NCBI GenBank assembly: GCA_013115125.1
Contig: JABANN010000293.1
Location: 1 to 41,882 of the forward strand
Direction: 5' to 3'
Source: Perkinsus olseni
Taxonomy: Eukaryota
DNA: 41,882 nucleotides
Shown: in pieces, positions 10,901 to 39,170 of the stretch
Layout of the letters: each line of letters opens with the position of its first letter
How positions within the stretch are numbered: the first letter of the stretch is position 1
Notes under the pieces: model-generated
Seen by the model: the letters and a program-made list of their open reading frames with translations, nothing else
The model's database searches: none
Told to the model about the DNA's origin: nothing
Made by a program: the position numbers and the translations under genes

Positions 10901-11818
10901 GCATACACGCATGAAGGCGTCGACGTCGATGTCAAGTGCAGCCAGCGCTTTGCCAAGATCTCTCAGCTTCTTCGGATCGCTGATGACAGGCCATGACAGC
11001 CCCGGTGTGGATAGCAGCCCCCTGACCCTGTGAAACGCTGAAGGTTCAGTGGACCCGGTGGTGAAGTCCATCAGGTAAGAGTAGGCGTATCCTAGTAGGA
11101 GACTGACATAAGCCTCGTCGGCATTGGATGTGAGTGGGAAGGCCTCTACAGAGTAGCTGCCGTTGAGGAAGAGGGCAGCATGGCACCTCGCACTGCAATC
11201 CGTTGCGACGAGGGAAGTGAGCAGACAAGCTGACCGGAGCCTCTCGTCCTCAGACCCTCGAGATGAGCTTCTTGCCATAGCGCTCCAGGTAGCAGCCAAG
11301 TCACCTCCACCGACAATCCACACCACATGCGCTGAGCTCTCGAGGTCGACATCCTCAACCTTCTGCCGATGGCCGATGCTGCCCGAGGAGCCGCCCAGCA
11401 CCTCCCCCAGCGGGCTCCGGCTGCTGACCAGGCTCACTCGCATCTTAGGCGGGACATCAGCCGTGCAAATCCTGGGCAGGCGTGCCATCACAGTGGCTGT
11501 CACGGTCCCCCTGTGTAGTGGTAGACCCGCTTCCCGGATGCTGTAGGAGACATCCGAGTGCTCTTGGGCTAGGCGAGAGGGCTCCAGCGGGTACAGCTTG
11601 CTCGTCGGCACTATGATCATGTCTTCCGGGCCACCGCCTCCTAGGTGCACTACTGCTTCGGCGTCTCGTCTGTTCGGCGCCACACGGAGACTTGTAACCG
11701 TGCCGTGTACGAAGGTGGGGAAGGGCGAAGGCTCCTCCTCACCCGTGTCACGGACAACGAGCACTTCTTGCCCGACCAGATTAGAGGGGGGCTTCGGCGT
11801 TGACAAGCCGACTGTCAT
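7991..11818 (-). CDS. Myosin-derived protein: SH3-like N-terminus, degenerate motor domain, ~9 IQ motifs, RCC1/ATS1-like tail (MyoH-like architecture), intronless
   Basis: IQ motifs such as IQSLYRSWLER, IQRVWRQKRTR, VQAYWRGVLVR, IQTRWRSHRQV. RCC1 repeats VACGSQHILF..FAWGSNSMGQCG, LFSWGDNTCKQLGR, GEVFVWG. N-terminal VGQEVLV..GTVTSL..VPTSKLYP resembles the myosin SH3-like domain. First in-frame ATG at 11818. Confidence 0.75.
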   Translation of the reverse strand: MTVGLSTPKPPSNLVGQEVLVVRDTGEEEPSPFPTFVHGTVTSLRVAPNRRDAEAVVHLGGGGPEDMIIVPTSKLYPLEPSRLAQEHSDVSYSIREAGLPLHRGTVTATVMARLPRICTADVPPKMRVSLVSSRSPLGEVLGGSSGSIGHRQKVEDVDLESSAHVVWIVGGGDLAATWSAMARSSSRGSEDERLRSACLLTSLVATDCSARCHAALFLNGSYSVEAFPLTSNADEAYVSLLLGYAYSYLMDFTTGSTEPSAFHRVRGLLSTPGLSWPVISDPKKLRDLGKALAALDIDVDAFMRVCCALMLLVQSSSISSALCIRPDELICDLLGIEDPLDKQVSSIEFVHVLQRGLLCWAASLEVSDENGDGTIIVACPADRRDSYGSYGDLLLTREALRIARCTRAADYIDERFHRACEHIRLPTTGNERVLDLFQGSSVRLVRDICQAAADEQVGQDWLDAAKESVESVRESGVGAHLIVVTRDEKDPLEMAHQLWLFSTIAATRVNPMMKPFHIDIVEARERLALKASSETEILEELSATIGVPPGGLDIRKGSLRIGMGAIGSLLKHEAALMAPRSKKERCERILKSCMTRQYAAKAVRKVVQIQSLYRSWLERKESLDRVPRALNCLFGALCLLRRVNEFSKRHAAVVHIQRVWRQKRTRMKYAGYIMQLRRIRAAIVLQAFYRRLAAVKLVDELRLKRTRVYSVEIVQCFVRRYLAQLTLLSRAYRLRAERAAVVVQAYWRGVLVRRWWGRVRGGLPWLALIIKAKLIAMHDAQVRLSAWWRGTATRVVRSGTGKRVYDYLAAARGDIWEEVHRTRSARRIQTRWRSHRQVRHFRALTEATRVIQDAMRTTSWRRWWVSIRRTVIHLQRHFRARAELAEMERQLRASEWSNRSITHRVSPTVLGRDICIIHAPENVEETLRRTFDSYERSEGCDLHIFGSRCKHVVAVKDGWLWVSGHLVPPPPRLEALSVKTVACGSQHILFTCNETELCFAWGSNSMGQCGLPQDAVAFLRTPLAIPVRGCDGRVKLIAASGKTSAYVTKRRPSRVHVIGQCTESECADLADFGDTAIIARITLSVFEDTSRRLLKPCVFVLTGKGELFSWGDNTCKQLGRPIEDSSLARVPGKVQLGDARAAGRVVQVSVAAGAVYVLAVTDVGEVFVWGTVMRAHAGGPPEAFNFDLPTSVILPVENTAAIQVAASWGDTWFVVLAPECSVWCCRGLCRRGAFAVIENAETIEWPTSVYEARTRGALLRSSNSVKGSLVYMAFE

Positions 11819-12148
11819 CACAAACACTTTTGCAACTAAGGACACCAGTCAAGCCAACGCTATTTGCTTCATACTCAACGGAAGCCTGACACTGGCAGCT
11901 CTACTCTGCCGCATGCTGCCTCTCGCTATTCATATGCGAGCGTATGCCACCAGCCGTAAAGTGTCTTGCGTACTGGAGGGAAGACCCACGCTTCTCATTT
12001 AGAAATTGTGAATCAATGACCGCCGGTCATTGACCGGGCTGATTCTGTGATCCCCCCTGAGTGCGATAGTGAGTATAGCTCGGCCTTACGCCGGACCGAC
12101 CACTACAATTGACGAAACCGTTCAATAGAGTACTCTGAGAAACGTTGA

Positions 12149-13559
12149 CTATTCGGTGACGCTAGAGGGAGCGTTGTCCGTCCCTGTGCTGGATTTCTCC
12201 TTCCTGGCACTCTTCAGCTCAGCCACGGCCACTCGTTCGTCGAGCGTCGGCCCCTTCGCTCGCTGCATTATCGGGACGTACTTTCGGGCCTTCACCTCAC
12301 CGGTCCCTCCCGAGGACCCTGCTAGACACTGAAGCACCGCCAAATCCCTCTGAGCCGCCACCGCCGCTCGGGAGAACATCGCGACTGCTTCCTGGTCCTC
12401 GACAGCGTTTTGATCGAACCAATCAACGTCATACTCGCAATCGAATAGCACCAAACCAGCGCCATCAGCCAAGTCGTAGCTGGGCTTGCCAGGGGTCTTC
12501 TCAATGTCCAGGAGAGCATCAATAACCTCAGGCGGCTCCAGGCCTCTGCCTATGAGCATGAGGACCTCCATCATGCATCGAACCTGGTGCCATAGGAACG
12601 CGCTCCCTGTGATGACCGCATGGGAAATGACACCACCATCGCGAAGGTCGAACGAATGAATAGTCCTCTCGAAGTTGACGGTCTGCTCCACGTCCATCCT
12701 ACAGAAGTTGCGGTAGTCGTGCTGCCCAATCAGTCTCTGAGCAGCCCTGGACATCATTCCAAGGTCCAAGCCTTCCGAGGGGAAGAAATACTTGTAAGTG
12801 CGACTTTTGGAGCTGAACCGTGCGTCGAAGTCGTCGTTCGGCACCGAACAGACCCGCAAGATCCGGATATCCTCGGGAAGCACTCGGTTTATCATCTGGA
12901 CGTAGGGGAACTCGGTACCTGATGAAGCCATCGTTCCGACTAGTTCACGCAGGGGCGAACACGATACCGAGGACCTCTGATACTGATATACCATGAGACT
13001 ACAAGTTGTGGTAAGTTGGGCTACGTACTGTCTCCCATTAACCAATTCCTGTCATACTATTGCTTCACTACTTACCTACCACATTCACCCTGGTTGCGTT
13101 CAACAGAGACACTCGAGACAATTGCTACATTGAAGTCGCACGTTTCCGGAGACTCAGGAATCTGCTCACCATCTGGTTTCACACGCAGCCGCAGTGTAGC
13201 ATAGTTGCCTCTGGCATGGACCCCTTTGTCGGTTCGACCACACCGAGAGAAGTCGCAAGATGTACGGGACTCTATCAGGCAGGTCTTGACTAGAGCTTTG
13301 AAGAGCTCATTCTCCACCGTATTGACGCCAAACTCCTCCTGATTCTGCCAGGCTACTCCAGCGTACCTGAACAGCCACCAGCACGGCCACATGCAGAGAG
13401 CCTCTAGCACCTAGCCGAGGGCGCCCACCTAGTCCCGATGTAGGCAAATTTCAACAGGAAGCGGCCCGTCTTGGCCGTGGCCCAGTCTATCCCTCGAGGA
13501 GCCTTCCGTCGCTTCTTGCTCTTGGGCTCGGAAGAGCTGCTCGGCGGGGTGGAGGACAT
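12149..13559 (-). CDS. PUS3: TruA-family tRNA pseudouridine(38/39) synthase (Pus3/Deg1-like), spliced
   Basis: LKFAYIGTR|YAGVAWQ, TVENELFKAL, FSRCGRTDKGVHARGN (catalytic Asp present), FDARFSSKSRTYKY, GQHDYRNFC, GSAFLWHQVRCM. Intron 13367-13428; a second intron ends at 12919. Confidence 0.92.
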
Positions 13560-13661
13560 GACGCAACTCTGCTAGCATTGCCAATGGACCAAGGGAAAGC
13601 CGACAAACGCAACCTAACCAACTTCGAAAATACATCCGAAACATGTCCAACAGTCGGCGCA

Positions 13662-15176
13662 TCACTCAGGGATCCGCAGCGCCTGGTCATCTCTCTCCAT
13701 ATCGATCTGGGGTGGGGGCTCCTCCCCTATCGCCAGAGAGTGCCGAGCTTGATCGAAGATCGACACGAACTCGCCGGTGATCGGATTCACCAGTGTACCT
13801 AGGAGATTATTCAGGCGACTTCTACATAGCAGTGACTCAATTTCAAAAGTTCAAATTTTGACTACCAACAGTCGTGACTGCCCAACTTTCTACTAGCAAG
13901 CGTCCCTCCCAGGTACCCGCTCACCTTTAGCAGCCATGATGGCATCCCTCGCTATCCTCCGCGGTGCTAGATGCCTCACATGGGGACTCACTGGCTGGGG
14001 GCAGATGTAATCAACGTAAGCAGTGCTCGATCTGTAGGGCCCGAACGATGCCGAGTTGACCTTAGTTACCTGAAGCACGCGGTAGCGGCTGTCGGAGCCA
14101 CAAGGGAGGGCTCTGCCTTACCCGGAGTTTGTATGTGTCTCTGAATAGCTTCACCAAGCTCTTCTCATTAGTCATCACTAGTCGGACTCTCAGCCACGTC
14201 ACCTCCTCGCTCGGCCGCTTGTCTATACCAACGAAGACCTGTTCGCCATCTAGAGGTGTGAGCAGCGACGGCTGGGCGCGCGTACTTGTCCGTAATCGAC
14301 ACTGCCCACTTGAACGCCTTCTTTTCGCCTCCAGCTCCGGAAGCGGTCCTCGGGTAATCTGCCTTTCACACGAACCAGAAAAACACCTGTGAAGCGCAAA
14401 GGGCGTCAAAAACCTAGAAACTGCCAATCCTTCAACCCACTGAGGACTTTGCTGCGGGGGTGAGCCATATTGTGGGCAAACTCGCCATCATTAGTGAGGA
14501 CAACCAGGCCGGAACACATGACTGGGATGGGGTTAATTACGATGAAGTGTGGTGGTATCAAGTCGACGTTGTTGATGTTATGGCTGAGTTCGTGTGCCTG
14601 GGGGAAGCCCACAGATGGGGCGGCACCCAGGAAGGCCGACTCACCCGACGCTTGTACCATATCTCGAATAAATCAGGCAAGGCTGTAAGGCCGCGTATCC
14701 GTGTCGCACTACAGACGACGCCTCGAGGTTTGTTGATGAGCCAAACCTTCGGATCCCTGAACAGAAGCTCATCACGCGGCCGCCTCCTGCAGACAGAGCC
14801 CACCCCGGTGGCTCCACTGGTTGATCTCGGCAGATGACATCGCAATGGTCAGACACTTGCACGTTATGGCGGACAACTTGGCCGTCAACGACAACTTCGC
14901 CATTCCTTATGGCCGCTTCCGCCTGACGACCAAGAAATCGGAACTCAAGCGAGGAAGAGATCCATCCACCTGGGAGCGCGACATCTGGCCAGACAGAGAT
15001 ATCCTTCGAGCGAGCCATTCAAAGCTAGTGGTCATCTTCTGTAGTGTACGGCAAGCTATCCGAGGGACGTCCTCGGCGGTCATCACTCGAGGGGCCACCT
15101 TTCCAGCAGAGCAGCGAGAAGCGGCCGAGGTGAGCAAACCCTCACCGGCGTGGATGAGGGCCCGACTGCCGCTCAT
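13662..15176 (-). CDS. S4-domain RsuA/RluB-family pseudouridine synthase homolog lacking the catalytic motif, multi-exon
   Basis: WLARRISLSGQMSRSQ|AEAAIRNGEVVVDG (S4), WLINKPRGVVCS, SGLVVLTNDGEFAHNMAHP, FLVRVKG, TWLRVRL, FGPY. The GRLD position reads NPIP. The last exon ends ..LRIPE* at 13662. Confidence 0.8.
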
Positions 15177-15295
15177 AAATTACAAAAAACCAACCCGAGG
15201 AAGGTTGTGATGAGAGTATCCCCAAACCAGTACCCGAAAGGCCTACACAAATTCGAACGGAGTCCAGGAAACAATGGCGGAAACAGAATGGCATG

Positions 15296-16318
15296 TCAGA
15301 TCGTACTGGCTGCATTGTCATGGCCTCTTGTCACATTCACTCGGCACGAATTAGTCCATGTACTGGTATGCTTGTATCGTTCAAACAGGGCGATCGCTAA
15401 GGCATAGCTCACGTTGAAGCTGTGATGAGTACCCTCCGCGGTGGGTATCTGTAGAGAAGGGCACTCGGGAAACGATGAAAGCAGCAGAGCCAGCAGCGAC
15501 CGGCATATCTAGAACAAAGCCTTGGGATCAGGTCTTGCAATAAGCAACAGGCCCGTCCCGCGAATATCCTTCCCATGCAACTCACGCTAAGAACGGCATC
15601 GGCGACTCCGAGGACGGCGTCCGAGACACCGTCGGCCTCTCCACCAGCTACCATCAGCAGGTGAGAACTTCTCAAATAACATGAGTCCGAGGACGCGGCA
15701 GTGAGATCAATCCACTGCAGCTGAACGACGGGCACGTCCAACGCAAGCGGCGAGGAAACCAACCATCGTACATACACCCCGAGAGATGGCCTCTTCCTTG
15801 TTCTCTAACGCACACACGACGAAGTCATGGTCCTTCCTTAAAGCATCGATGAGTTCTATCGGGTCCGTTGTAGTGAATATTCTCGGGCCACTGAGCGTAC
15901 TGTAGTGAGAGTAGTTCAAGGCAAGTTGGAGGAGGTCCCTGAACGACTGTACGAGTCCACTCCCGCAAGGGTCCGCTGAAGACACCGGAAGATATCCCCT
16001 CCATGGATAGGACGACGCGAGATAACGGAGAGATGATGCAGAAAATACAGGCCGTTCACTCACTCTGTGACGGCGCCCTCGCCCAAAATCAAGGCTCCTG
16101 CCCCGAAGCTCGAGCTGTATCGGAGGACCCTTGCTACGTTGCCTGGGTACCTACCCCTCATGCCACTTGACTAGGCCGCAAGCAGGTAGTGGGACTCACT
16201 GCACTCCATCAAGCATGACCAGCGTGTGGGCCTTTGCACTTGCCCTACCGCCGCTCGCTACAAAGTCAATGACGCTATTCAAGCGGGATGCTCGCAGGAT
16301 ACGCTGACGCTGGAGCAT
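15296..16318 (-). CDS. SpoU/TrmH-family RNA methyltransferase, paralog A (motifs intact)
   Basis: Spliced HTLVMLDGVQ|YPGNVARVLRYSSSFG (motif 1), MVAGGEADGVS (motif 2), IPTAEGTHHSFNVSYALAIALFERY (motif 3). Arg-rich N-terminus MLQRQRILRASR. Confidence 0.82.
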
Positions 16319-16450
16319 CCAACCCTGGGGAAAGCTGCATGGCCATGCTGTACCTAGACAACCGAGCAAAGGAGCCGGCCTCCTGTATCATGCCTTTCTA
16401 TCACTTCCCTTCAGCCTGGATACGACCCGTCTAGCAACACTAGGCAGATC

Positions 16451-17443
16451 TCAACACAAGAAACTAGACTCGAACTGGTCATCGGAAACGTCCCCATGCT
16501 TCCCCATTCTCTGCCGTATCCTCTCTTCCCGCAGAGCCCGCAACTCTGCGTCCGGCAGCGGTGGTAGAGGGCTAGGGCGAGGCCAATCCTTAGTGAATCG
16601 GTACCGCTCGAACATAGCCAAGGTCATCGCACTGCACACATTGTAGCTGTGATGGTGGTCGAACACAGTGGGGATCTGAGAACTCGAGCCACGTACGCCA
16701 CGAGCCATCCTCAAGGACAGTACGACATCTCTCTTCAGCCAGGGCGGAACGAAACTCACGCTCAGGATTGCATCAGCTTCCCTCGGGATGAGTGGGCCAA
16801 CGCCTTCCAACTCTCCGCCACCAACGAACAGCACTCGTGGCGATGATATCTCCTTGCCGGCCGACGCGTCGCAGCTGAGGTCGATGAAGGGCAACTAAGA
16901 GGGGTTGCTGAGTGACGAGGACAGACAAAGGCGACTGTAGGGCACCCTTACGTCGTGTTGGACGGCCACTTCCTTATTCTCGAGGACAATCACGCGGTAG
17001 CCATACTCCTCGCGCAAGCGCTGCATCGTCCCCGCACAGTCGACGTTCAATACTAGAGGTATCCCACCACGACGAACAGTATGGGACGAGCAGAGAGCCG
17101 ACAAGGCGAAGTCCCTATCAAAGCAAATTGCTTCCCGCCTAGACCTCGAGGATTACCGTTGGTACAAGTGGGACCCCCTAGAGTCGGCAAGCAGCAGTGC
17201 AGAGCATCCCAACTTGCCGGCATTGGCCAGCACGTTGCCGACATTGCCTGGATACCTGCGGGCCGAATCTTGCCCTCTGCCACTCAATGCCTCCAAGACT
17301 CACTTGACACCATCGAGGAGCATCAACGTATGCGGTGGGATCTTAACTTCGAGTACTTCCACCACACTCTGATGCAAGAAAGAAGCGGCCAGCAAGCAAA
17401 GATTCCTCGTTGGATTTGGGCGTGAGAAGCCGCATCCGAGCAT
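16451..17443 (-). CDS. SpoU-family paralog B (motif-1 Arg replaced by Ala)
   Basis: HTLMLLDGVK|YPGNVGNVLANAGKLG, FVGGGELEGVG, IPTVFDHHHSYNVCSAMTLAMFERYRFTKDWPRP. Introns at positions equivalent to paralog A. Confidence 0.82.
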
Positions 17444-17530
17444 GAAAGACTGCACACAAATCCGCGCCCTTGCGCCACAGCCATGCCCGTACTCAGACTC
17501 CGCCACGTTGTTGTGTCAGAAACATGCTTC

Positions 17531-18932
17531 TCAAGTAACGGCTGCCGAGAACTGACCGCTATCTGCTTCAGGCACGTGTGAGTTCGGATACCTCAGGGCC
17601 GTCGGCGGGCACGCAGGAGGCCTCGGCCAGTCTTTCGTGAGCTTGTAACGCTGAAGCATTGCTGCAGTGAGACTGTGATTGACACCAAGCTCGATCGGCA
17701 CCTACGAGGAGGACCTTGTGCAATCAGGCTGATTGAATCAGCCTGCAAGAGTAGTCCAGTCGCCAGTTACAATCGACACTCAGAGAGTCAGCGCTTTCTG
17801 TATCAAGAAGCGAGTGGGGGAAGGCATATGCCCTCTAGACGACTAGATTCTGACTCTATGGAAAATTTACTACGATCGTATTGTTATTTCCGATTTCTCC
17901 GGCCGTCTCGAACACGCTATCACAAAGCTCGGCCACCCGTACATTCGACGAAAATTCTCCCTTAAGACGAAACTCGAGGCCAGAAAGTAAAAATTTCACT
18001 GTGCAATGGGTGGATTGGTTTCCGAAAGTGTGGAGTGATCCCTGCATGAAAGCATGGCCCGTTAGTGGAGCGAAGCGTCGCCGCGTTCCAGGGCTTACCC
18101 GCATATAGAAATGCGCCTTCTCCCCGAGAGTGTCACCGGCAACACATTGAGGGCCATCTACGACCATAAGCAACAGTTGACTGCCCATCCAAGCAGAGTC
18201 TTGTACACCGCTGCTCAGGTCTACCGTTGGTAGGAGCACCTGCAACACATCCCGATCGAGCAAAGCCGTGCAAGAAAGTCCAATCGATGCGCGGTAGACG
18301 CAGGGATGTGCAGACGACAGGCTCACAAGGTGCACAGATGCCCGAGTGATTTCCAAGATTGTGAAAGAACTCACGCGGTCGCTGGTGTCGTCGGAACACA
18401 ACGACCCTATGGTGTAGCCGTAGGAATCAGACAATACGGTAGCGACCTCAGTAGACTCCACACCAGCAAGCACATGTGGTCCCCCGAAACAGTAAGCCAT
18501 CGAGTGCCTCAAGCAGGTCTTCACGAAGGACCTGAAGAGCCACATTCACCAATCTTCGCCCCAGCTTCACGAGAACGACCGCCTACTGTGTGTAAATAAA
18601 CCCCCTAGTGGTTCCAAGGATAACAGCAGAAGCTCCCAGCAAGTGACAATTCCGTATCACGCTGGCCACAACGCCTGGGTTCCTGACAGAGCTCAGTACA
18701 GTGCGGCACCTGTGGTAGAGGCAGACACCTACTCTATGTCGTTGAGTAGGATCAACGTATGCGGAGAGATTCCGGATTCGCCGCCATGCACGATCTCAGA
18801 CAGGGATGCACTAGTGTACTTGTCGGTCCACACCGAGAACAGCCGCCGCCGGGCGTACGACTTGGCCGCTATGCTACCGAGACGTCGAAGAAGTATTATC
18901 GATATGACAGGCGGAAAGCAACAGATCCTCAT
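17531..18932 (-). CDS. SpoU-family paralog C (Arg retained, SAM-knot motifs 2 and 3 degenerate)
   Basis: HTLILLNDIE|NPGVVASVIRNCHLLG and LMVVDGPQCVAG. Intron 17702-18098 leads to the last exon VPIELGVNHSLTAAMLQRYKLTKDWPRP (17531-17701), which is not in the ORF track. Confidence 0.72.
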
Positions 18933-19019
18933 CGATTTATCCACTCCTCATCAACTCAGTCCCTCTCGCAGCAGTAGCAGAAACCACGCATGAAACGAAG
19001 GACATGGTGGGACGAGGCA

Positions 19020-19992
19020 TCAGGCAGACACGCAGGTCGGGGGAATAGCAGACGGTCTAGGCCAATGCCTCGTCACTTTGAACCTCTCGAAGAGAGCAAT
19101 CGTCACGGCACAGCTGATGTTATAGCTGAACTGCGCGCTGGGCAAGGTCGGAACCTGAAGGAGACGACCAAGCACGATAGAGATGAATTCTGCCATGGTG
19201 GATATCACATCCCACAAAACGTCAGCTCGGCCGACTAGCTCGTCCCCCGGCCGCTGAGCCTCCCCGCCACTGATGAAAAGCAACCTATGGGCCTCCATGA
19301 ACTCGCTACTCGACGCCAGCCGACACAGGTCGTAACGGCGGGCCTGAGAACCGCTGTGAGTGGTGTGACTGCATCACAAAGAGGGCCTCAGGTTCCGAAA
19401 CACTCTGCTACCTGCGAGCTGCTATCAGTGAGAGAACCGTCCCCAAGGACTGCTATTGTATACCCAAAGTGCGTCTTGAGCTCATCAACGGCTTCAATTA
19501 GGTTGCAGGTCGGGACTACGGGGCAGCCTCCGCGCTTGTAACACATCGACATCCGCAGTGCAGATCTCATCCATGAACTACGCAACGACGGAGTGGATGG
19601 GAGAGATGCTCTGGACCCTACTTCGATTGGTGTCGGTCACTGTTTTGGGAGCTGCTGCCGAACAGTACACCGGAAACTCCAAGGAGGTAACTGTGTCTCA
19701 ATATACTGGCCGCGTTGCTAGAGAACCTATCGAACTTCTATGATGCGTCATAGGCGATAGCGTGATAGTTCCGGTTAACAAACACATGCCGGCTGCGAAG
19801 GAAGAGCAACACACCCACGTGTCCGATCGAGAGCTCCACCAATGAATACTGTATCGAGTCAGCCATGACCAGAGTGTGCGGCGCAGGTCCTTCTCTAGCG
19901 AGGATGCTGCCTAGGGAGGGATACAGAAAAGGGGCACTCCACGTAGCAAAGCTCCTCCTCAATAACGCACTAGCATTTACTGGAAGAAGCAT
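19020..19992 (-). CDS. SpoU-family paralog D
   Basis: MLLPVNASALLRRSFATW (presequence-like), HTLVMADSIQ|FSSNAASILRHSYLLG, FISGGEAQRPG, VPTLPSAQFSYNISCAVTIALFERFKVTRHWPRP. Confidence 0.8.
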
Positions 19993-20234
19993 GAACTACA
20001 GTCGAACAATCGATCGCACATCCCAGAGCGCAACCCGCGCTACCGTGATGAACCAAGAGCCTATCATCGACGAGGAAAAGTCTAGATTCATGGTGAAAGT
20101 AAGGTTACAGCCTTAGCGAAGGCCGCGAGAAAAATCAACTTGTGGCCCACGATTCATCCAGGCCATACTTGTCGGGAGAATGAATGGTATAACACTTGAA
20201 AGCAACTCCATAATGCGCGTCATAACAACCAGCG

Positions 20235-22111
20235 CTAGTCGTTGAACTCCATCAGCTGCGCGCCGTAGTTCTCCATGATGTTGTGATACATCGCCTCCCC
20301 AGTGTCCACCTCACCACCATGCTGGTCGAACGTACTCAAGAGAATCTGAAACAGCACAGAGTGACGATTGCGAGACACCGCACCGTCAAGAACCCTAAAA
20401 GATACTTTCTCTATGAGTGCTTGCTCACGATTTCTCATCCCGGGCGCTAAGCAGTTCACTCGAGTCAAAAATGACGTTGCGCTGAGAGCTCACACGCCAG
20501 GAACACCACCAAGGAAAGGATGCTGTCGAGTTTTCGCGGTCGCGGGCAAGTACGTAAGTGCTCTTCCCTAGGCCGACCTCCTCCGGCCACGGCGCATTCA
20601 GCCATCGCCAGTACCCCGCTCTGAGCTCGCCGTGGAGCTGGCCAGGCGCCCACCGAGCGCAGCCATCGAATATGATTGCGCGCGCTCCTTCCTCATCGTG
20701 TTGCTCCGGCTGCTGCTGGGCGCTAGCAGCGAGGACAGCAGGGAGATCTCCGCCGAGGTACACAACATTGCCTTGATCTTGCGAGAGAACCACTCGAGCC
20801 CCCACAACACCTCGCGCTTTGTGCATAATCTGACATCCTGATATCACAACTACGACCTCAACGAGGGACCAGTGGCCCTCAGACCTCGGGTAGACTCACC
20901 CGCCGCTCCTCGTTGATGCGCACTGGCCCTCCCCGAACTGTTAGCAACTCTCCAGGAAGCACAACTCCATCGTCTTGAGAGGCAGCAGCAACCATCGACC
21001 TCGCCACGGGCTTGTTGAGAATCAGTGCTAGTGAGCCGAGATGATCGTGCTCCAGGACGAGCGTGACGCTCCGAAAGAAAATGGACCCCGGTCCGACTGC
21101 CAACGGGACAGCAAGCTCCACCACATATCGGGAGCTAAGCGCTCGACAGCCCAGTCAATGATGATCTCTGAGTGCTCAATGGCAGACGCTTCGCACTAGA
21201 AGTGCCCAACAGGTGAATCACGAATCACTAGGGAGTCCGGTGATTCAGAGCGCAGACTGGCTGACTCACTTATGTTGTCGTTGGCGATGAGCAGGGCTCC
21301 CTTGTGGAAGTTGGCCACCGGGGCACCGTGGCGTATGAGGGCTACCCGGAAGCCACCATCGTCATCATGCGTGACCACTGGGCGGATGCCGAGTGAGTGC
21401 AGGGAAGCACAAACGGCGATTGCCATCGCTGCACATAGTATGGGGCATCTGAGGAGCGCAGAGACGCGACCTACCACTACCAGTATGGAGGAACTCACCT
21501 GTAAGCCAGCACGAGCATCACAGCCACGACAGCTACGATGATCAGGGATCGATTCAAGAATATCGCGAAGGTGATGGTGACTAATATCAACATCATGTCC
21601 TTCACCAGCGCCCACAGTCTCTCCAACAACGGCCGATCGGGAGGATCCAGAGCGAACCTCCCCTGAATAGCAGACAGAGATCATAAACTCGTCCGCAAGG
21701 TTCTCACTACCTGACACACGCTGCAGGTCGTCGCTTTCTCACTTGCGAAGTCACCGGCACCGAGGACTTGCATTGCCCGCTGCCAGCGTTGCAGACAGGA
21801 TACATGCACCCACTGAGAATACAACCACAGACTGGGCGGCACACACTTTCCGGTCCTATGGACGCAGTCGATATCGATGGTGCAGACGCACTCCTACGAA
21901 CCTTCTGTGATCCCTTGCACATACAAGGGGCGATCAGCTCATTGCCTTTGGTTTCGCCAGGGCTGAAGCATATCCGACAGAACAGCTCCGTGGACTCGTC
22001 GCTGCTGCTGCTGATGTCACTTTCCGCTCGAACAGCAGTACCACGGCTTCCCTGCTCGTCCACGTCGTTGCGCTCGGATCCACCGCGGTGTTTCAGGGAT
22101 GAATGGCTCAT
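20235..22111 (-). CDS. RING-CH (RINGv/MARCH-type) E3 ligase with TM segment fused to a DUF179 (YqgE/AlgH) domain, multi-exon
   Basis: CRICF..LIAPCMCKGSQK|WVHVSCLQRW..CSVC, then a hydrophobic stretch, then GALLIA..FFRSVTLVLEHDHLGSLALILNKP..GGPV..IFDGCARWAPGQLHGELRAGYW. Confidence 0.8.
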
Positions 22112-22599: not shown

Positions 22600-23609
22600 T
22601 CAAAGACAGCGATGAGATGATGCATATATGAGGCTGGGGGAGACGGCACATGGTCGCGAAATTGGACCGGTTGAGAAGGGTCCAAACAGTTTGAATGGTC
22701 GAGAGCGAAGAATTCGGGCACTCTGAGAACCTGAGCATGTCTGGAGAGTGAATAGCGCAGGTATGTGGTGATCAGCGACGGACAAGGCCATCATGCTCAT
22801 TGAGAAACCCCGATGCAGAGGGACTCCACAAGAGCCACCATGATCACCGCATCACGTCGCATGGTTCACACGCGACTACGGCCTGATAATAGGACGGTGT
22901 AAGGGAGCGCAAAAGCCCATTGCAATATCGAGGTAGTGAAACGCTGGTTAGTTAAGGACATCTGAAAGTGGAGAAACTCGCCGCAAGGCACGAGACTGGC
23001 AACGCCGTATCTCACCTATGAGCCAGCACGAGCACGCAAAAACTAGGACGATCAAGGACAAATGCAGCACTACCGCCAAGATAGCCGCTGACCAGGTAAA
23101 CAGGATGCCCTTTAGCGGCATCCACAGCCTGTCCAGATAAGGCAGCTCAGGAGGGGCCAGAGCGAGTTTACCCTGGAAAGTGAACAAAATCGAGAAACTC
23201 CAATACCATCACGACCACTACCTGGCACACGTTGCAGGTCGTCGCTTTCTCGCTGGCGAGGTCTCCACATCCACCGATTATCTGCATTGCCCTTTGCCAA
23301 CTTTGAAGACATGATACATGTACCCACTGAGAATGCAACCACAGACTGGGCGGTACAGTATTGGCGATGTGAATAACGCGAAGTCAAGAGACTTCAACGA
23401 ACCTTCTGAGTTCCCTTGCACATACAAGGGGCGATCAGCTCATTCCCTTTTGTCTCTCTGGAACCGAAGCATATCCGACAGATCAACTCCTCGCACTCAT
23501 CGATGCTGACCGATTCACTGTCTGCCAGAAGAGCCGTCCCACGGCTCCCCAGATCCTCTCTGATGTTACGTTCGGTAGGAACTCTGTGCTTGGCAATCGG
23601 ATGGTTCAT
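22600..23609 (-). CDS. RING-CH membrane protein, tandem paralog without recognisable DUF179 (3' end uncertain)
   Basis: CRICFGSRETKGNELIAPCMCKGTQK|WVHVSCLQSWQR..CNVCQ|GKLALAPP..TM. Same first two introns as the 22111 gene. Confidence 0.7.
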
Positions 23610-23884
23610 AAGAGCAACATCAAACTACAATGCGGGGGCTACCGATAAGTGGCTGCATCAGATTCGTCAACCTGGGATACTTCAGATGGCAACGAGGGCC
23701 ATCTGTCCACCATTGACCAGCCATACACTGGTTCCCAGCCTGCGCAACAGCCAGTTTGGCATTGCAGAAAATAATTATCCCTAATTTTACCAGAATCAAG
23801 GACCCACAGGGTACCCCCGGAATGGTATACGATATGATGACACTCGTCAGCCTCGGCAGAGGAAATCGAGCCCGATACGATCCA

Positions 23885-26800
23885 TCAAACGTTGGCAGCC
23901 GGAAGGATAGCGCCGTCTCGATCACCTCCCTCGGGCGAGCCTCCTTCAGACCGCTGTGGTCTCGCCCGGCGCCTTACAGCTGCGTGAGACGAGCCCTGCT
24001 TGCTCACTAGGACGTCGGGCATCTGACCTATACTGCCCGTCACGGACATTAATTTAGCAGGAGAACGGTAGAGAGTGACCACTTCGTAGTACAGGACCCT
24101 CTCGGCCTCCAGTGAGTGCCTCATCCGGGCAATTTGAACTCCTTGGCAGAGTTGAAGAGGATACGTGACGGACGGCAGCTCTTCGAACATTATACGTTTG
24201 CTGCTGTCCTGAATGACTAGCCTGAAGAAGCGGCCAATAGTGAGCACCACACCCAAGTAGAGACCGATCACGCTGAGACTCGACGACGCCGATGCACCTC
24301 CTCCAGCACTCGGCGGCACTGCTCTCTCGCTGACCAACGCCAGTGTAGGGTTGTCCGCCATAGCCCACCACACCTGGGAGTCCTCCTTCTCAACCTTGAG
24401 CGACACGTTGTTGAACTGACGGAACGACCCCGGAGGGCTCGCCCATGGACCGTTCAAGTACAAGGCCCTCGGGATGAGGCCTCCAATATGCAGGCGACTG
24501 CCGTTGACCAAGGACATCGCATCCAAGAGCTGCTGCGCAGGTTGGACCGACTGCACACAGTGGTAGCCAGAGGACCTCACACTGCCAGGCTGGGAGTGAC
24601 CGAACTCCCATGTCACGCAGAAGGTAGCATTGACCTCCCCGCTCGGAGTCTGGTTGGCCTGAATATAGTCTCTGATTTGCCGGCGTAGTGGAGGGCTTGG
24701 CTGCCACAGCACATCAGCCGCCTTTGGGAGAGTAGCATTTTGGAGGTCAGCGCTATGCATTGCCGTGTAGGACACCAGCTCTTCGGGCATCAGAGGGTAC
24801 TCCGACGACTGCGGGACGCGGAGGCCGACATGATCGGTCTTCCACACGGGAATGGACAGTTCCCCTACCTTCAAAGAGATGGCCATGGACGCGCTGGTGA
24901 CCATGTTGGATTCCCTTAACAAGTTCAGGCCCGAGAAGAACGTCAGTGGGCCGGTGATAACGAAGACCAGGAAGGCAAGGACACTGCCTCCTAGCAAGAA
25001 CCGGTACTTGGGACTCGTCTGCCGCTCAATCGCAGCTCGACCTGCGATGTCGTAGTGGACTAAGTAGAGATTCTGCCAGGCATCTTCCAGCTTGAACCAC
25101 ATGAACAGCGACAGTGCCGTCCCTCTCGAGCTGGCAAAGTCACAGATGACTCTGAGCTCGTCCAGGAAGGGGATGACCCGATAGACGCGGTAGGTGTAGT
25201 AGGAGAACCAGGCACCATTGCTTGGGGGGATGGGCTTGGTCGGGTCATTAGGGTCCCTCGTCGGCGGGATTGACCCCAACCACACCAGGCCAGGGTGCGA
25301 TACCCTGATCGCGAAGTGCAGCTGGATGCCAGTAAGGACCAGGTAGCCGGTGAAGGGCATCACAACCCTCAATGGGACTGTGCGGATGTAGACACAACCG
25401 GCCAGCATCAGGACCACCTGCGCCCAGAGGATGAGCTTCTCGGTGAGGACATGGCGGCCAAAACTGTAGCCATCGACTGAGGTCGACAACCGCGAGTAGA
25501 TATAGCGATCGACCAGCACGCGGACAATCAGGCCAACTATCGCGAGGACTTGGACAGTTGAAAACCGGTTGTTCCTCACACTCTCTGCGAAGCCCGTCTC
25601 GAGCTTATCGGTAGAAGCTGACGAGATTGCCGACCAGTCGAAAATGATGAGGAATATCACCACAAGGCTGAAGGCGAAACGTGGAATGAACAAGTCCAAG
25701 GACGGCCTCCGCAGTGATGCCGCATGGCCGCTAGCTCCCTCAGAATCTTGCTCGCTGCTCTCTGGACGACCTTCGGGGTCCTCGGGTCTTCGCAGTATCA
25801 CCTTCGCCTGGGCCGGAGTCATGTCCGTGCCACGACCAGACAACCGCTTGTGGATTAGATGCAGCGCCACGAGCACTACTATGCCAAGGTCCCACCCGAC
25901 ATAGCGGAGCAAGGCAGCGTCCTCATAGTCGGAGACTTTGAACAGACCCAGACGAGACAACGGGGTCACAACGCCGTAGGTGGGAGGACACTCCCAACGA
26001 CTCTCGACGATAGAGGGAACGTAACCGTCCGTGTCGCACACGTGAGGCATCTGCATCACCAGCTTGAGTGAGAGGCTACCCAGGCCACAGAGGCCAACCA
26101 CGATCCACGGCGTAGCGGTGAGGAACGGGTAGGCCGCAGGGATGAGCCAGCAGAGCATGATGCCCAGGGGGATGACCGAGAGAATAGACGCATCATAGGC
26201 TACCGCCTGAGAGAAGAGGGCGATGGCAACCCATATGGCTGTGTGGGACAAGAGGAACTGCAGAGTAGAGGGCAACTTGGCAGACACCGGGTGGGCCTTC
26301 AGAGCGGGGTCAATGACGTTGTAGTTGAAGCTGTGGAGAAGGGAACTGATGATGTTGACCCTTTTGTGGCGTCTCCCTCCCTGACTGCCATCCACGCTGG
26401 CCCGAGGCAGATTCACATTCTGGCCGCCGAGCACCATAGTAACACCGTCAATCACAGCATCGGTCGTCTGGGCCACCGCGCCAGTGACATTCTCAGCCGC
26501 CATGATAGACCGGCGGCTACGATGAGCAGCTTCTGTACTCGAACTGCTTGGGGTCACTTGCCCACTAGGCTGCCCAGCCGACTGTGCTTGGTCGTTCCCC
26601 GCCAGCTCCTCCTTCGCCTTAGCGAGGATGTCGTCTCGCTTCTCTTGGATCTCAGCCTCCGAGCTGCCTGTGACCACTAGGCGCTTGAGCACCGTGCTGA
26701 TGATGAACTCTGCGGGAGTGTCATTTGGCAGTGCCTCGCTGACTTCGGTCAAGTCAGCCTTCACTTGAACCACCGACATCCCCAAGTAGAGAGCGATCTC

Positions 26801-30223: not shown

Positions 30224-30245
30224 GATGCCATCGCAACAGCAGAAC

Positions 30246-30866
30246 TCACTTGCCCTTGATAATTTGACGATAGGCCAAGGTGAGCCTCTCCCGCATATTC
30301 TGATCTATGTGGGGCCCCGGACCCGCTCGATGCATCTCAACATGTTTCACCAACTAAAAGCACCGCCGTGGGGCGAGAAAGCCGGAAGCAGTCCGCTACT
30401 ACCTGAAGGCTCCGGTACCAGCCCAGGCCTGAGTTCCGCTTAACTTCCATTCGGAATTGCTTCTTCACATCCAATAGCATCCCCTGCTGTTCCTCTAACC
30501 TCCGCTGGGCTACCCCCGCTCGCCGCGCCTCAATACGAGCTTGCCTAGAGGCTTTCTGTCCACAAAGCAACAATGTGGACAAGCGAGAAAATCACCATAC
30601 CACCAGCAGCTTGGAACGGTCGAAAAATTCACCCTCCGGTGAGACTATATTCTGGGTAGTCCAACGCTCGCGGGGCTACTTTAGGTTTACGACATACGGA
30701 CTGCTATTGCCACTAAGAATGAGCCCTTCAGTACCTTCCTCGTCCCAAAAACCCGTATCGGCTTGACCTTGAAGTACGAGGCAGCAGTTCGGATGGACCC
30801 CAGCGGCCGCCACAGCAGCCCTCCCGAAAAATACGGTTGCCATCCACCGAGACTTTGCAATAACAT
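30246..30866 (-). CDS. Small basic presequence-bearing protein resembling the N-terminal half of ribosomal protein uS13 (putative mitochondrial), 4 exons
   Basis: Hand-spliced MLLQSLGG..RTAASYFKVKPIRVFGTRK|NIVSPEGEFFDRSKLLV|KASRQ..DVKKQFRMEVKRNSGLGWYRSLQ|LVKHVEMH..IDQNMRERLTLAYRQIIKGK*. The GLG..RS helix pattern recalls uS13 (IYGIGxxRS). Confidence 0.42.
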
Positions 30867-38445: not shown

Positions 38446-39170
38446 GGTAGTCCAACTAGTATTCGTAACTCGACTCCGCCTGAGATCACTGCCATCGTTT
38501 TGAATCCGTGTAGTGTCCCAAGCGTCTGCACGATGGACCTGAGACTGACAGCTGGAGAGGTATGGGCTTCTTGACGAGTCCAGCGGGGTATGTGAGGCCA
38601 CAGAATCTCATCAGCTGCGTCTTGCCCATGGCACGTTCTGATTGAGAAGTAATGGGCTCGCCGGATCCGTAATGGCCACCACGTATGCCTTTGGCCTTCC
38701 AGCATCGTCTCAGTCGGTGATAAAGATTCTGCATCGTTGAAGTTAAGGATCCGGTTTGACTGCAGATTTGACGACACTGATAATCATCGGACTCTCGAAT
38801 CGCCGTTGCGCTAGCCATATCTCTCTTACCTGACCTTGAGTCACTATGGGGAGAGGCTTTTCCTGAGATAAGTGGAGCGTGCTGGACGGCCGCACAAGGC
38901 GAGCGAAGTTCCGCCCTATATTTCAGTGTCTCCTTTACCTTCTCTCTGGGAAAAAGAGGCCTAAGTCTTCACGTATCATTCTCTTAATGAAGAGGTACAT
39001 TGCCTCAGCTCAAGCGAACGCATCGCATGGTAGCGGGCCATCGGAATAACGCTCGGCCTGTCGATCTAGGATCCGTTGACGCCCAGTCGCTGGTGTGACG
39101 CCGTGCAGCTGTGGTGACGCCTGTGCGCGCGGTGCTATTCACCCCCTCACACATTTGCTTTCCCTTAGAC

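What the first reader, a model, noticed from the sequence alone, without database searches (positions are those of the whole stretch)
12149..19992. Operon-like array of six RNA-modification genes in a eukaryote: candidate mitoribosome maturation module
Seen: SpoU-D, -C, -B, -A, an RluB-like gene and Pus3 lie head to tail on one strand, with gaps of only 87, 87, 132, 119 and 102 bp in my models. SpoU A, C and D have basic presequence-like N-termini (LLRRSFATW, RRLGSIAAKSYARRRLFS, MLQRQRILRASR). A TruD gene and a possible uS13m lie in the same 42 kb. Known: SpoU-like and pseudouridine-synthase-like proteins, some inactive, act as mitoribosome assembly factors in trypanosomatids, and myzozoan mitochondrial rRNA is highly fragmented. 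Inference: a co-transcribed set for modifying or scaffolding fragmented mitochondrial rRNA. The four SpoU genes are explained by tandem duplication; their adjacency to two unrelated Psi-synthase families is not.
Basis: partly seen in the sequence, partly recalled or inferred. Interest (0 to 1): 0.75.

Follow-up and report, generated by a model that had tools for sequence, protein, structure and literature searches.

The report
Tandem RNA-modification gene array in Perkinsus
Six neighbouring genes for RNA-modifying enzymes in the oyster and clam parasite Perkinsus olseni are real and expressed, several look like enzymes that have lost their chemistry and may now serve as ribosome-building scaffolds, but the tight operon-like packing is mostly how this genome is built in general.

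Summary
On the minus strand of 12149-19992 lie four SpoU-type paralogs, an RsuA/RluB-type pseudouridine synthase and a PUS3 ortholog. They run head to tail with CDS gaps of 87, 87, 132, 119 and 102 nt. The organism is Perkinsus olseni.

RNA contigs from 4 runs show GT-AG splicing. They also carry the Perkinsus spliced leader at three of the six 5' ends. The four SpoU genes share one 5-exon plan, are only 26-37% identical, and are therefore old duplicates.

Two SpoU copies keep the full catalytic set. SpoU-3 lacks the catalytic Arg. SpoU-2 keeps that Arg but lacks the AdoMet-side residues. The RluB-like protein has Pro in place of the catalytic Asp.

The PUS3 gene is the ordinary tRNA Psi38/39 enzyme with an NLS-like N-terminus. 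The same-strand run spans at least 27 kb and includes unrelated genes. A dedicated six-gene operon is therefore not supported.

A mitochondrial rRNA or mitoribosome-assembly role is plausible for five of the six genes, but it is untested.

The parts
19020..19992 (-). SpoU-1, 227 aa. Exons: 19992-19850, 19726-19622, 19577-19412, 19343-19209, 19154-19020. Catalytic N, R, E and N are all kept.
   Evidence: Model. Spliced-leader loose end at 19997 in X7, and the exon 3/4 junction seen as a loose end at 19411 in X12. The P. marinus ortholog P0012 is 69% identical. Residues read from the alignment. Intron 1 (19849-19727, weak donor GTATTC) is retained in X9 contig record 17.
17531..18932 (-). SpoU-2, 254 aa. 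Exons: 18932-18733, 18682-18587, 18531-18375, 18239-18099, 17701-17531. Degenerate copy: motif-1 Asn is Val, motif-2 Glu is Pro, motif 3 has a 6-residue deletion. The motif-1 Arg is kept.
   Evidence: All four introns are RNA-supported (refined). Model, residues. No database protein was found for this copy.
16451..17443 (-). SpoU-3, 253 aa. Exons: 17443-17304, 17255-17157, 17114-16952, 16894-16760, 16675-16451. The catalytic Arg is Ala; motifs 2 and 3 are intact.
   Evidence: Model. The leader acceptor at 17451 shows only 4 leader letters in X7, and the exon 4/5 junction is a loose end at 16760 in X12. The same Ala is present in two other P. olseni isolates, P0001 and P0007. P. marinus ortholog is P0004.
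15296..16318 (-). SpoU-4, 218 aa in my model and 222 aa as NCBI protein P0002 (FOZ61_001023). Catalytic set intact.
   Evidence: Pfam SpoU_methylase 58.2 bits, E 1.3e-15. AF2 model pLDDT 81.5, pTM 0.82. Top Foldseek matches are SpoU rRNA 2'-O-methyltransferases. P0002 differs from my model by 4 residues at the intron-3 donor.
13662..15176 (-). RsuA/RluB-type pseudouridine synthase homolog, 364 aa, 8 exons. It has an S4-like domain, and the catalytic GRLD motif reads NPIP.
   Evidence: 7 of 7 introns are RNA-supported. Model, same length as NCBI P0013 from another P. olseni isolate, which differs at a few residues. Pfam PF00849 33.7 bits, S4 21.7 bits. Best PDB matches are RsuA and RluB. Alignment with E. 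coli RluB, RsuA, RluE and RluF.
12149..13559 (-). PUS3/Deg1-type tRNA pseudouridine(38/39) synthase, 365 aa, 3 exons. The RTDKGVHA catalytic motif is intact and the N-terminus contains KKRRK.
   Evidence: Both introns seen in 4 of 4 runs, and a leader loose end at 13570 in X9 and X12. Pfam PseudoU_synth_1 at 5.7e-30. Human PUS3 at 3e-46.
19995..19997 (-). Spliced-leader acceptor of SpoU-1. The exon starts at 19995 and the 5'UTR is 3 nt.
   Evidence: X7 loose end reads, on the RNA strand, CTTGGCTCA followed by genomic AG. This matches the 3' end of PmaSL1 quoted in PMC3101222.
17444..17530 (-). SpoU-2/SpoU-3 spacer, 87 nt. It holds the SpoU-3 leader acceptor (exon start 17449) and is covered without a break by an RNA contig.
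   Evidence: X8 record 11 (1165 nt) is continuous over 17302-17699 and is spliced on both sides. Acceptor positions.
13568..13571 (-). Spliced-leader acceptor of Pus3 (CAG). The exon starts at 13568 and the 5'UTR is 9 nt.
   Evidence: X9 and X12 loose ends at 13570. Sequence context.
20075..21451 (-). Upstream same-strand neighbour, an AlgH/DUF179-like gene. Context only, not part of the RNA-modification set.
   Evidence: Pfam DUF179 on two exons. Spliced contigs in X12, X8 and X9. CDS stop at 20235, which is 242 nt from the SpoU-1 ATG.

Best explanation
This is a genuine, expressed, unidirectional gene array in Perkinsus olseni.

Shown:
- An ancient fourfold tandem duplication produced four small SpoU-type (SPOUT) 2'-O-methyltransferase paralogs. 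They have an RlmB-like catalytic domain but no N-terminal RNA-binding domain.
- SpoU-1 and SpoU-4 keep the catalytic Asn, Arg, Glu and Asn.
- SpoU-3 has lost the Arg.
- SpoU-2 keeps the Arg but has lost the residues on the AdoMet-pocket side.
- Downstream lie a catalytically dead RsuA/RluB-type pseudouridine synthase that keeps its S4 RNA-binding domain, and then an intact PUS3.
- Where seen, each mRNA is matured separately by spliced-leader trans-splicing only 3-9 nt upstream of its ATG.

Inferred:
- The genes are read as part of a long same-strand transcription unit that also holds unrelated genes. The operon-like look is therefore a property of the genome, not of this set.
- The four SpoU proteins and the dead RluB-like protein work in the mitochondrion on the fragmented rRNA or on the assembling mitoribosome. 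The intact copies would methylate. The degenerate ones would act as RNA-binding placeholders or as halves of heterodimers.
- Because the SPOUT catalytic Arg acts from the partner subunit, a SpoU-2:SpoU-3 heterodimer would have exactly one complete active site.
- PUS3 is an ordinary tRNA enzyme, and its adjacency is probably coincidental.
For: Models, gaps and intron phases.

Splicing and leader ends. The leader sequence comes from PMC3101222.

Organism and database counterparts.

SpoU membership and fold. The best curated bacterial model is RlmB.

Catalytic residues: the alignment, read against the five key TrmH residues and the trans-acting Arg41 described in PMC5372735.

Dead synthase. The domain is well conserved in the P. 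marinus fragment P0014.

Age of the duplicates: 26-37% identity between paralogs, against 69% between SpoU-1 and its P. marinus ortholog.

N-termini: SpoU-1, SpoU-2 and SpoU-3 have no acidic residue before position 29-37, and SpoU-2 and SpoU-4 carry 6-7 basic residues in their first 30. The RluB-like protein has about 50 residues ahead of the S4 domain that the E. coli enzymes lack.

Mitochondrial argument:
- Perkinsus mitochondrial rRNA is fragmented and all tRNAs are imported (PMC9550989).
- From recalled knowledge, Perkinsus has no plastid genome, so the mitoribosome is its only bacterial-type ribosome.

Precedent: dead SpoU and pseudouridine synthase homologs act as structural assembly factors in T. 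brucei (PMC7957421).

The genome-wide character of the layout.
Against: - No localisation evidence of any kind. The N-terminal features are a crude count, not a predictor.
- In SpoU-1 the conserved mature part starts about 16 residues in, which leaves a very short presequence.
- The structural neighbours of SpoU-4 include tRNA enzymes (TrmH, TrmJ, TrmL, TARBP1) at similar scores to the rRNA enzymes. The substrate class is therefore open.
- The proteins lack the N-terminal domain that RlmB, MRM1 and MRM3 use to bind rRNA.
- The words methyltransferase and pseudouridine do not occur in the main text of the two Toxoplasma mitoribosome structure papers or the P. marinus complexome paper.
- CDS gaps inside the array (87-132 nt) are shorter than those to the flanks (242 nt upstream, about 330 nt downstream). 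This hints that the six may be packed more tightly than their neighbours.
- After collapsing the duplicates, three consecutive RNA-modification families are unlikely by chance, so 'PUS3 is coincidental' may be wrong.
- The heterodimer idea rests on alignment alone.
Confidence: 0.5

Rival explanations
1. All six genes form one dedicated, co-regulated operon whose products act together on mitochondrial rRNA, and the adjacency is selected for.
For: Gaps inside the array are 87-132 nt, against 242 nt and about 330 nt to the flanking genes. A fully spliced RNA contig bridges SpoU-2 and SpoU-3. A 1850-nt X7 contig continues 776 nt beyond the RluB-like 5' acceptor. After collapsing the duplicates, three unrelated RNA-modification families sit in a row, with TruD 16 kb away.
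Against: PUS3 is the cytosolic/nuclear-type tRNA enzyme with an NLS-like N-terminus. Mitochondrial tRNAs are imported. The same strand continues through unrelated genes on both sides, and the AlgH-like contig ends 78 nt from the SpoU-1 acceptor. TruD is on the other strand, beyond a strand switch. Contigs cannot prove a single RNA molecule (tool note). Pus3 has no SpoU or RluB-like neighbour in 51 of 51 metagenomic loci, but all are at most 49% identical and only 18 are 5 kb or longer.
Confidence: 0.15
2. The neighbours are unrelated in function. The SpoU paralogs are small tRNA 2'-O-methyltransferases of the TrmH, TrmL or TrmJ kind, acting in the cytosol or on imported tRNAs. The adjacency to the two pseudouridine synthase genes is chance within a gene-dense transcription unit.
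For: The proteins consist of the SPOUT domain alone, like TrmL and TrmH. The protein-atlas look-alikes are small SpoU proteins of about 216-234 aa from several eukaryotic groups, at score 0.91, which is a lead only. Tandem duplicates are common in this window: RING-CH-like pairs, and the 39.1 kb and 41.0 kb paralogs. The scan behind this finding covers very many windows, so some chance triplets are expected (inference).
Against: The best sequence models and most of the top structural matches are rRNA enzymes: RlmB, NshR/Tsr, AviRb, RlmR. The RluB-like protein belongs to a bacterial rRNA-specific family. Catalytically dead copies are hard to explain as plain tRNA enzymes.
Confidence: 0.25
3. 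SpoU-2, SpoU-3 and the RluB-like gene are decaying duplicates or relics with no function.
For: Catalytic residues have been lost. No database protein exists for SpoU-2.
Against: All have intact reading frames across 5 to 8 exons and are transcribed and correctly spliced in several runs. SpoU-3 and the RluB-like gene have conserved P. marinus orthologs. Paralogs at 26-37% identity have been kept for a long time.
Confidence: 0.07

Closest known systems
Bacterial RlmB (23S Gm2251) and its relatives among SpoU rRNA 2'-O-methyltransferases (NshR/Tsr, AviRb, RlmR; mitochondrial MRM1/MRM3)
   Same: The SPOUT catalytic domain with three motifs. This group gives the best curated-model and PDB sequence matches, and the predicted fold of SpoU-4 matches these structures.
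   Different: There is no N-terminal SpoU_sub_bind/L30e-like domain. The RlmB model score of 46.7 bits is far below its 160-bit cut-off. The Perkinsus proteins carry a lineage-specific insertion of about 20 residues and a C-terminal WPRP..PP tail. Two of the four copies lack catalytic residues.
Inactive SpoU 'MRM', RPUSD4 and TruD-like mt-LAF4 in the Trypanosoma brucei pre-mtLSU (PMC7957421, passages read)
   Same: SpoU and pseudouridine synthase homologs with disabled active sites, in an organism whose mitochondrial rRNA is unusual. This gives a structural-placeholder model for SpoU-2, SpoU-3 and the RluB-like protein.
   Different: The lineage and the subfamilies differ (RluD-type and TruD-type there, RsuA/RluB-type here). 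There is no evidence here of ribosome binding. The T. brucei chain 6yxy_EE is only a distant structural match (TM 0.46). The trypanosome genes are not reported as a cluster in the passages I read.
RsuA/RluB/RluE/RluF family of bacterial rRNA pseudouridine synthases
   Same: An S4-like domain followed by a PseudoU_synth_2 domain. Best PDB matches are RsuA and RluB.
   Different: The catalytic Asp of GRLD is Pro (NPIP). The K-x-Y Tyr and the Arg-rich motif also differ. There is an N-terminal extension of about 50 residues and a C-terminal tail of about 90 residues.
Operons of Caenorhabditis elegans and polycistronic units of kinetoplastids, both resolved by spliced-leader trans-splicing (recalled knowledge; general statements in PMC9399869)
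   Same: Same-strand genes with spacers of about 100 nt, a leader acceptor just upstream of each downstream ORF, and RNA covering a spacer.
   Different: No single precursor molecule, leader specialisation or co-regulation is shown. The unit includes functionally unrelated genes, as in kinetoplastids. Whether Perkinsus transcribes polycistronically is not established in the papers I listed (listings only, apart from the passages cited).
Eukaryotic PUS3/Deg1 (tRNA Psi38/39 synthase)
   Same: The Pus3 gene matches human PUS3 at 3e-46 and keeps the catalytic Asp motif.
   Different: Nothing unusual was noted apart from its position next to the array.

Membership tests
SpoU_methylase (Pfam PF00588, SPOUT class) | Profile match above the curated cut-off | tested here: met
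   SpoU-4 (P0002) scores 58.2 bits against a cut-off of 29.7, covering profile positions 3-142 of 142. The SpoU-1 ortholog P0012 scores 26.2 bits and SpoU-3 (P0001) 25.9 bits, both just under the cut-off. Single exons gave nothing: 0 of 13 ORF pieces at E<=0.01 and 0 of 10 exon pieces at E<=10. SpoU-2 could only be placed by paralogy.
SpoU_methylase (SPOUT class) | SPOUT alpha/beta fold | tested here: met
   SpoU-4 only. AF2 model from a 15-row alignment gives pLDDT 81.5 and pTM 0.82. 126 PDB chains match at E<=0.001. All of the listed top matches are SpoU/TrmH-class enzymes, except one T. brucei pre-mtLSU chain whose identity the table does not give. The knot itself was not checked.
Active SpoU 2'-O-methyltransferase | Conserved Asn and Arg (motif 1), Glu (motif 2) and Ser/Asn (motif 3), as listed for TrmH in PMC5372735 | tested here: inconclusive
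   By alignment, SpoU-1 and SpoU-4 keep them all. SpoU-3 has Ala for the Arg. SpoU-2 has Val for Asn, Pro for Glu, and a 6-residue deletion in motif 3. So the feature is met for 2 of 4 and not met for 2 of 4. No activity was measured.
RlmB/MRM1-type rRNA Gm methyltransferase | N-terminal SpoU_sub_bind (PF08032) domain plus the equivalog score | tested here: not met
   Only 30-55 residues precede the SPOUT core. All four non-Perkinsus hits carry PF08032, but P0002 does not. TIGR00186 scores 46.7 bits against a cut-off of 160.15.
RsuA/RluB pseudouridine synthase family (PF00849 with S4) | Domain profile matches | tested here: met
   P0013: PF00849 scores 33.7 bits against 26.8. S4 scores 21.7 bits against 22.8, just under. 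RsuA matches at 2.7e-9 and RluB at 5.5e-6 in the PDB.
Active pseudouridine synthase | Catalytic Asp in the GRLD motif | tested here: not met
   NPIP aligns with GRLD of E. coli RluB, RsuA, RluE and RluF. HMMER alignments to RsuA structures agree. The P. marinus fragment P0014 starts just after this motif, so conservation of the loss is not shown.
PUS3/Deg1 | Close similarity to PUS3 and an intact TruA-type catalytic motif | tested here: met
   Human PUS3 chains match at 3e-46, against TruA at 1e-14. RTDKGVHA is present in exon 2.
Spliced-leader-resolved operon or polycistronic unit | Same strand, short spacers, and a leader added to downstream genes | tested here: met
   Gaps are 87-132 nt. 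Leader ends were seen for SpoU-1, SpoU-3 (4 letters only) and Pus3, which is 3 of 6 genes. No leader end was seen for SpoU-2, SpoU-4 or the RluB-like gene in the part of the output that was shown.
Spliced-leader-resolved operon or polycistronic unit | One precursor RNA spanning several genes, with co-regulation | tested here: inconclusive
   X8 contig record 11 bridges the SpoU-2/SpoU-3 spacer, with 149 and 185 nt on either side. Contigs cannot show single molecules, and no raw reads were available.
Mitochondrial (mitoribosome biogenesis) protein | Targeting presequence or organellar location | not testable with these tools
   I only made a crude count of N-terminal residues. The supplements of the P. 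marinus complexome paper, which might list the orthologs, are closed.

The most novel reading that the evidence does not exclude
The array encodes a Perkinsus-specific set of mitoribosome biogenesis or structural factors that arose by duplication and subfunctionalisation. SpoU-2 (Arg donor, dead pocket) and SpoU-3 (live pocket, no Arg) would form an obligate heterodimer with a single composite active site. The dead S4-bearing RluB-like protein would clamp short rRNA fragments. The genes would be kept together as a true spliced-leader-resolved operon so that the partners are made in step. Such lineage-specific factors might also help the mitoribosome cope with the 18-19 programmed frameshifts of Perkinsus mitochondrial genes.
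Probability: 0.12. Interest if true: 0.8.

Novelty: new variant of a known kind. Interest (0 to 1): 0.5.

Why it matters
Perkinsus is the deepest myzozoan lineage that can be cultured and transfected. Its mitochondrion combines fragmented rRNA, fully imported tRNAs and obligatory frameshifting. The P. marinus complexome paper states that many uncharacterised proteins co-migrate with its mitoribosome.

A small family with graded loss of catalysis, next to a dead rRNA pseudouridine synthase, gives concrete named candidates for such factors.

It also gives a clean test of whether SPOUT heterodimers with complementary half-sites exist.

Separately, the mapped leader acceptors 3-9 nt from the ATG and the 87-132 nt gaps give coordinates for asking whether Perkinsus really transcribes polycistronically. 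The papers I could list do not settle that question.

Tried and rejected
- **Whole genome.** None is held for this window. No permutation test or paralog census was possible.
- **Exon-level searches.** Pfam and PDB sequence searches with SpoU exons gave nothing. Family membership could be shown only after full-length database proteins were found.
- **Word-indexed search.** Using the SpoU-1 exon 4-5 piece with 'longer' lengths found nothing.
- **Profile search of 1.84 billion representatives.** It returned 6 hits at E<=0.001. Four are named Perkinsus proteins, one (P0003) comes from an unnamed Logan assembly, and one (P0005) is a repeat protein that I regard as spurious. No relatives outside Perkinsus were reached this way.
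- **Fused protein models.** P0001 and P0007 fuse neighbouring SpoU genes. I first read them as bicistronic RNA. They are gene predictions on short genomic contigs of other isolates, so I rejected them as RNA evidence.
- **Adapter-flanked contig ends.** Ends at 12133, 16457, 17514 and 20074 looked like poly(A) sites. The end at 16457 lies 4 nt upstream of the SpoU-3 stop codon, so I do not treat them as mapped 3' ends.
- **Structure of the RluB-like protein.** AF2 without an alignment failed, with pLDDT 31.4.
- **uS13m.** Not found by tblastn with a truncated 44-aa E. coli S13 fragment or by a motif scan.
- **Synteny.** 51 metagenomic Pus3 loci, all at most 49% identical, have no SpoU or RluB-like gene nearby. 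They are too distant and too short to count against synteny within perkinsids.
- **Earlier notes of this scan.** Nothing in 3 look-ups.
- **Complex prediction.** Not run. SpoU-2 exists only as a spliced model, which the tool would not accept, and any SPOUT pair would probably pass by likeness to solved homodimers.
- **Codon-bias gene finder.** My finder mis-built the SpoU genes, and I replaced its models with RNA-guided and paralog-guided ones.
- **Depth values.** Depths were not used to rank expression.

Full report
**What is there**

The window is eukaryotic DNA with short GT-AG introns. Database proteins identical or nearly identical to two of the genes are annotated as Perkinsus olseni hypothetical proteins:
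- P0002 is FOZ61_001023.
- P0013 is FOZ60_009566.

I laid assembled contigs of four public runs on 11500-21500.
- 15 joints were listed, all CT..AC on the + strand, meaning GT..AG introns of minus-strand genes. 16 more joints were not shown.
- From these joints, from loose ends that read into the next exon, and from the conserved intron positions among paralogs, I built six minus-strand models.

The six models are:
- SpoU-1: 19992-19020.
- SpoU-2: 18932-17531.
- SpoU-3: 17443-16451.
- SpoU-4: 16318-15296.
- RluB-like: 15176-13662.
- Pus3: 13559-12149.

The RluB-like model has the same length as NCBI protein P0013, which comes from another P. olseni isolate and differs at a few residues. SpoU-4 differs from P0002 by four residues at one donor site.

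**Are they the families claimed?**

Single exons gave no Pfam or PDB signal:
- 0 of 13 ORF pieces matched at E<=0.01.
- 0 of 10 exon pieces matched at E<=10.
- A PDB sequence search with the SpoU-3 exon 4-5 piece also found nothing relevant.

A profile of exons 4-5 was searched against 1.84 billion representative proteins.
- It found six proteins at E<=0.001.
- Five are Perkinsus or Perkinsus-like: four named and one from an unnamed Logan assembly.
- One is a repeat protein that I regard as spurious.

Full-length SpoU-4 (P0002):
- It passes Pfam SpoU_methylase at 58.2 bits against a cut-off of 29.7.
- Its best curated bacterial model is RlmB, far below that model's cut-off.
- Its AF2 model has pLDDT 81.5 and pTM 0.82.
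- The model matches SpoU rRNA methyltransferases first: AviRb, NHR, RlmR and RlmB. TARBP1, TrmH, mouse MRM3 and a T. brucei pre-mtLSU chain follow.

The SpoU-1 ortholog of P. marinus (P0012) and SpoU-3 (P0001) fall just under the Pfam cut-off.

The RluB-like protein passes PseudoU_synth_2, has a near-threshold S4 match, and is closest to RsuA and RluB.

The large Pus3 exon matches human tRNA Psi38/39 synthase PUS3 at 3e-46.

**The four SpoU genes**

- All four have five exons, with introns at homologous positions and phases 2, 2, 0, 0.
- They are only 26-37% identical to each other.
- SpoU-1 is 69% identical to its P. marinus ortholog.
- The duplications therefore predate the split of the two species, at least for SpoU-1 and SpoU-3.

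Compared with bacterial RlmB-type enzymes, they differ in three ways:
- They lack the N-terminal substrate-binding domain.
- They carry an insertion of about 20 residues.
- SpoU-1, SpoU-2 and SpoU-3 share a WPRP..PP C-terminal tail, which SpoU-4 lacks.

**Catalytic residues**

Hori's review lists Asn35, Arg41, Glu124, Ser150 and Asn152 of TrmH as essential. It states that Arg41 acts from the subunit opposite the AdoMet-binding one (PMC5372735, passages).

In the alignment:
- SpoU-1 and its P. marinus ortholog keep all of them, and so does SpoU-4.
- SpoU-3 has Ala at the Arg position. Two other P. olseni isolates have the same Ala.
- SpoU-2 keeps the Arg. It has Val for the motif-1 Asn, Pro for the motif-2 Glu, and a six-residue deletion in motif 3.
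- All four SpoU-2 introns are RNA-supported, so this is not a modelling artefact.

The two losses are complementary. A SpoU-2:SpoU-3 heterodimer would have exactly one complete site. This is inference from alignment only.

In the RluB-like protein, the GRLD motif with the catalytic Asp reads NPIP, and two further conserved motifs are changed. The domain is nevertheless highly conserved in the P. marinus fragment P0014. The protein is therefore a maintained pseudo-enzyme.

Pus3 keeps RTDKGVHA. The TruD gene on the + strand keeps its GxKD motif.

**Is it an operon?**

Loose ends of RNA contigs read, on the RNA strand, CTTGGCTCA followed by a genomic AG.
- This is seen at 19997 (X7) and at 13570 (X9 and X12).
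- At 17451 only four leader letters are seen, in X7.
- The sequence is the 3' end of PmaSL1 as quoted in PMC3101222.

SpoU-1, SpoU-3 and Pus3 mRNAs therefore receive the spliced leader 3, 6 and 9 nt upstream of their ATGs.

X8 contig record 11 is continuous over 17302-17699, and its length fits spliced SpoU-3 exons downstream. It therefore joins SpoU-2 exons 4-5, the 87-nt spacer and SpoU-3. RNA covering the spacer exists. Contigs cannot prove one molecule, however, and the kind of run X8 is not on record.

Against a dedicated operon:
- Minus-strand genes run from about 5.1 kb to 32 kb.
- They include an IQ/RCC1 protein, an AlgH-like protein, RING-CH-like genes (judged by motif only) and a Piezo homolog.
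- The strand then switches, and acetate kinase and TruD lie on the + strand.
- The AlgH-like contig ends 78 nt before the SpoU-1 acceptor.

The layout resembles a kinetoplastid-style mixed transcription unit.

The CDS gaps inside the array (87-132 nt) are shorter than those to the flanks (242 nt upstream, about 330 nt downstream). This is a weak hint of extra compaction.

**Where do the products act?**

I have no predictor and no localisation data.

For a mitochondrial role of five of the six:
- SpoU-1, SpoU-2 and SpoU-3 have no acidic residue before position 29-37, and SpoU-2 and SpoU-4 have 6-7 basic residues in the first 30.
- The RluB-like protein has about 50 extra N-terminal residues compared with the E. 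coli enzymes.
- RsuA/RluB enzymes act on bacterial-type rRNA.
- From recalled knowledge, Perkinsus has no plastid genome, so the mitoribosome is its only bacterial-type ribosome.
- Perkinsus mitochondrial rRNA is fragmented and incomplete (PMC9550989 passages).
- T. brucei uses a closed-site SpoU protein, RPUSD4, and a disrupted TruD-like protein as structural assembly factors (PMC7957421 passages).

Against:
- Small SPOUT-only proteins are typically tRNA enzymes.
- tRNA enzymes score nearly as well as rRNA enzymes in the fold search.
- The words methyltransferase and pseudouridine are absent from the main text of two Toxoplasma mitoribosome structure papers and of the P. marinus complexome paper. 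Their supplements were closed.

Pus3 has an NLS-like KKRRK N-terminus. It is the general tRNA enzyme, and all mitochondrial tRNAs are imported. I therefore read its position as probably coincidental.

**Chance**

These figures are my own rough estimates, not computed from any call.
- After collapsing the duplicates, three different RNA-modification families lie in a row.
- If such genes make up a few per thousand of all genes, a chance triplet at a given place has a probability of about 1e-5 to 1e-7.
- Because the scan covers very many windows, a few such cases are still expected by chance.

Only a genome-wide permutation test and synteny in other Perkinsus species can settle this.

The 51 metagenomic Pus3 loci I could fetch are at most 49% identical and show no such neighbours. 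That says little about perkinsids.

**Verdict**

- The new points are the graded and complementary loss of catalytic residues in an old, Perkinsus-restricted SpoU family, the maintained dead RluB-like protein next to it, and direct evidence of spliced-leader processing at very short distances.
- I found no paper describing this array in my searches. Most results were seen as listings only, with passages read where cited.

Noticed in passing
18933-19019: The 87-nt spacer between the SpoU-1 stop and the SpoU-2 ATG contains no YAG acceptor; every AG there is preceded by G. No leader end was seen for SpoU-2 in the output shown. SpoU-2 may use an unusual acceptor, an acceptor inside SpoU-1, or be translated from a bicistronic RNA.
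   Followed up: partly
15241-15245: The X7 contig record 7 is 1850 nt long. It covers the whole spliced RluB-like mRNA and breaks at 15241, right after a TAG acceptor. 776 nt of it lie elsewhere and were not displayed. This may be a cis-splice from SpoU-4 into the RluB-like 5' acceptor.
   Followed up: no
19622-19849: Intron 1 of SpoU-1 is 123 nt with a weak GTATTC donor. It is retained in X9 contig record 17, which is continuous over 19622-19844.
   Followed up: partly
19992, 17443, 13559: After the spliced leader, the 5'UTRs are only 3, 6 and 9 nt long.
   Followed up: yes
21498-21893 and 22951-23624: Two similar minus-strand units each carry a Cys-rich RING-CH-like stretch followed by hydrophobic segments. 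This is probably a tandem pair of MARCH-like membrane E3 ligase genes. The call rests on motifs only, with no Pfam run.
   Followed up: no
39099-39830 and 40992-41699 (+): Two paralogous ORFs of about 240 aa share an N-terminal 'EYDPSDTPSGFLRWS' stretch and have no Pfam match. This is another tandem duplicate in the window.
   Followed up: no
32985-34409 (+): An apparently intronless 475-aa ORF encodes acetate kinase (Pfam E 2.8e-135). It lies just past the strand switch at about 32-33 kb.
   Followed up: no
23888-30304 (-): A single 2139-aa open frame carries the Piezo cap and THU9/anchor domains. It is a Piezo-type channel homolog in a perkinsid.
   Followed up: no
P0001, P0007 (other P. olseni isolates): NCBI gene models fuse SpoU-2 with SpoU-3 (P0001) and SpoU-3 with SpoU-4 (P0007). 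They do this by predicting introns across the short spacers and by keeping the in-frame intron 4 of SpoU-3. No model of SpoU-2 was found at all. The public annotation of this array is unreliable.
   Followed up: yes
16457: An adapter-flanked contig end in X7 lies 4 nt upstream of the SpoU-3 stop codon. It is either a library artefact or an mRNA 3' end within the coding sequence.
   Followed up: no
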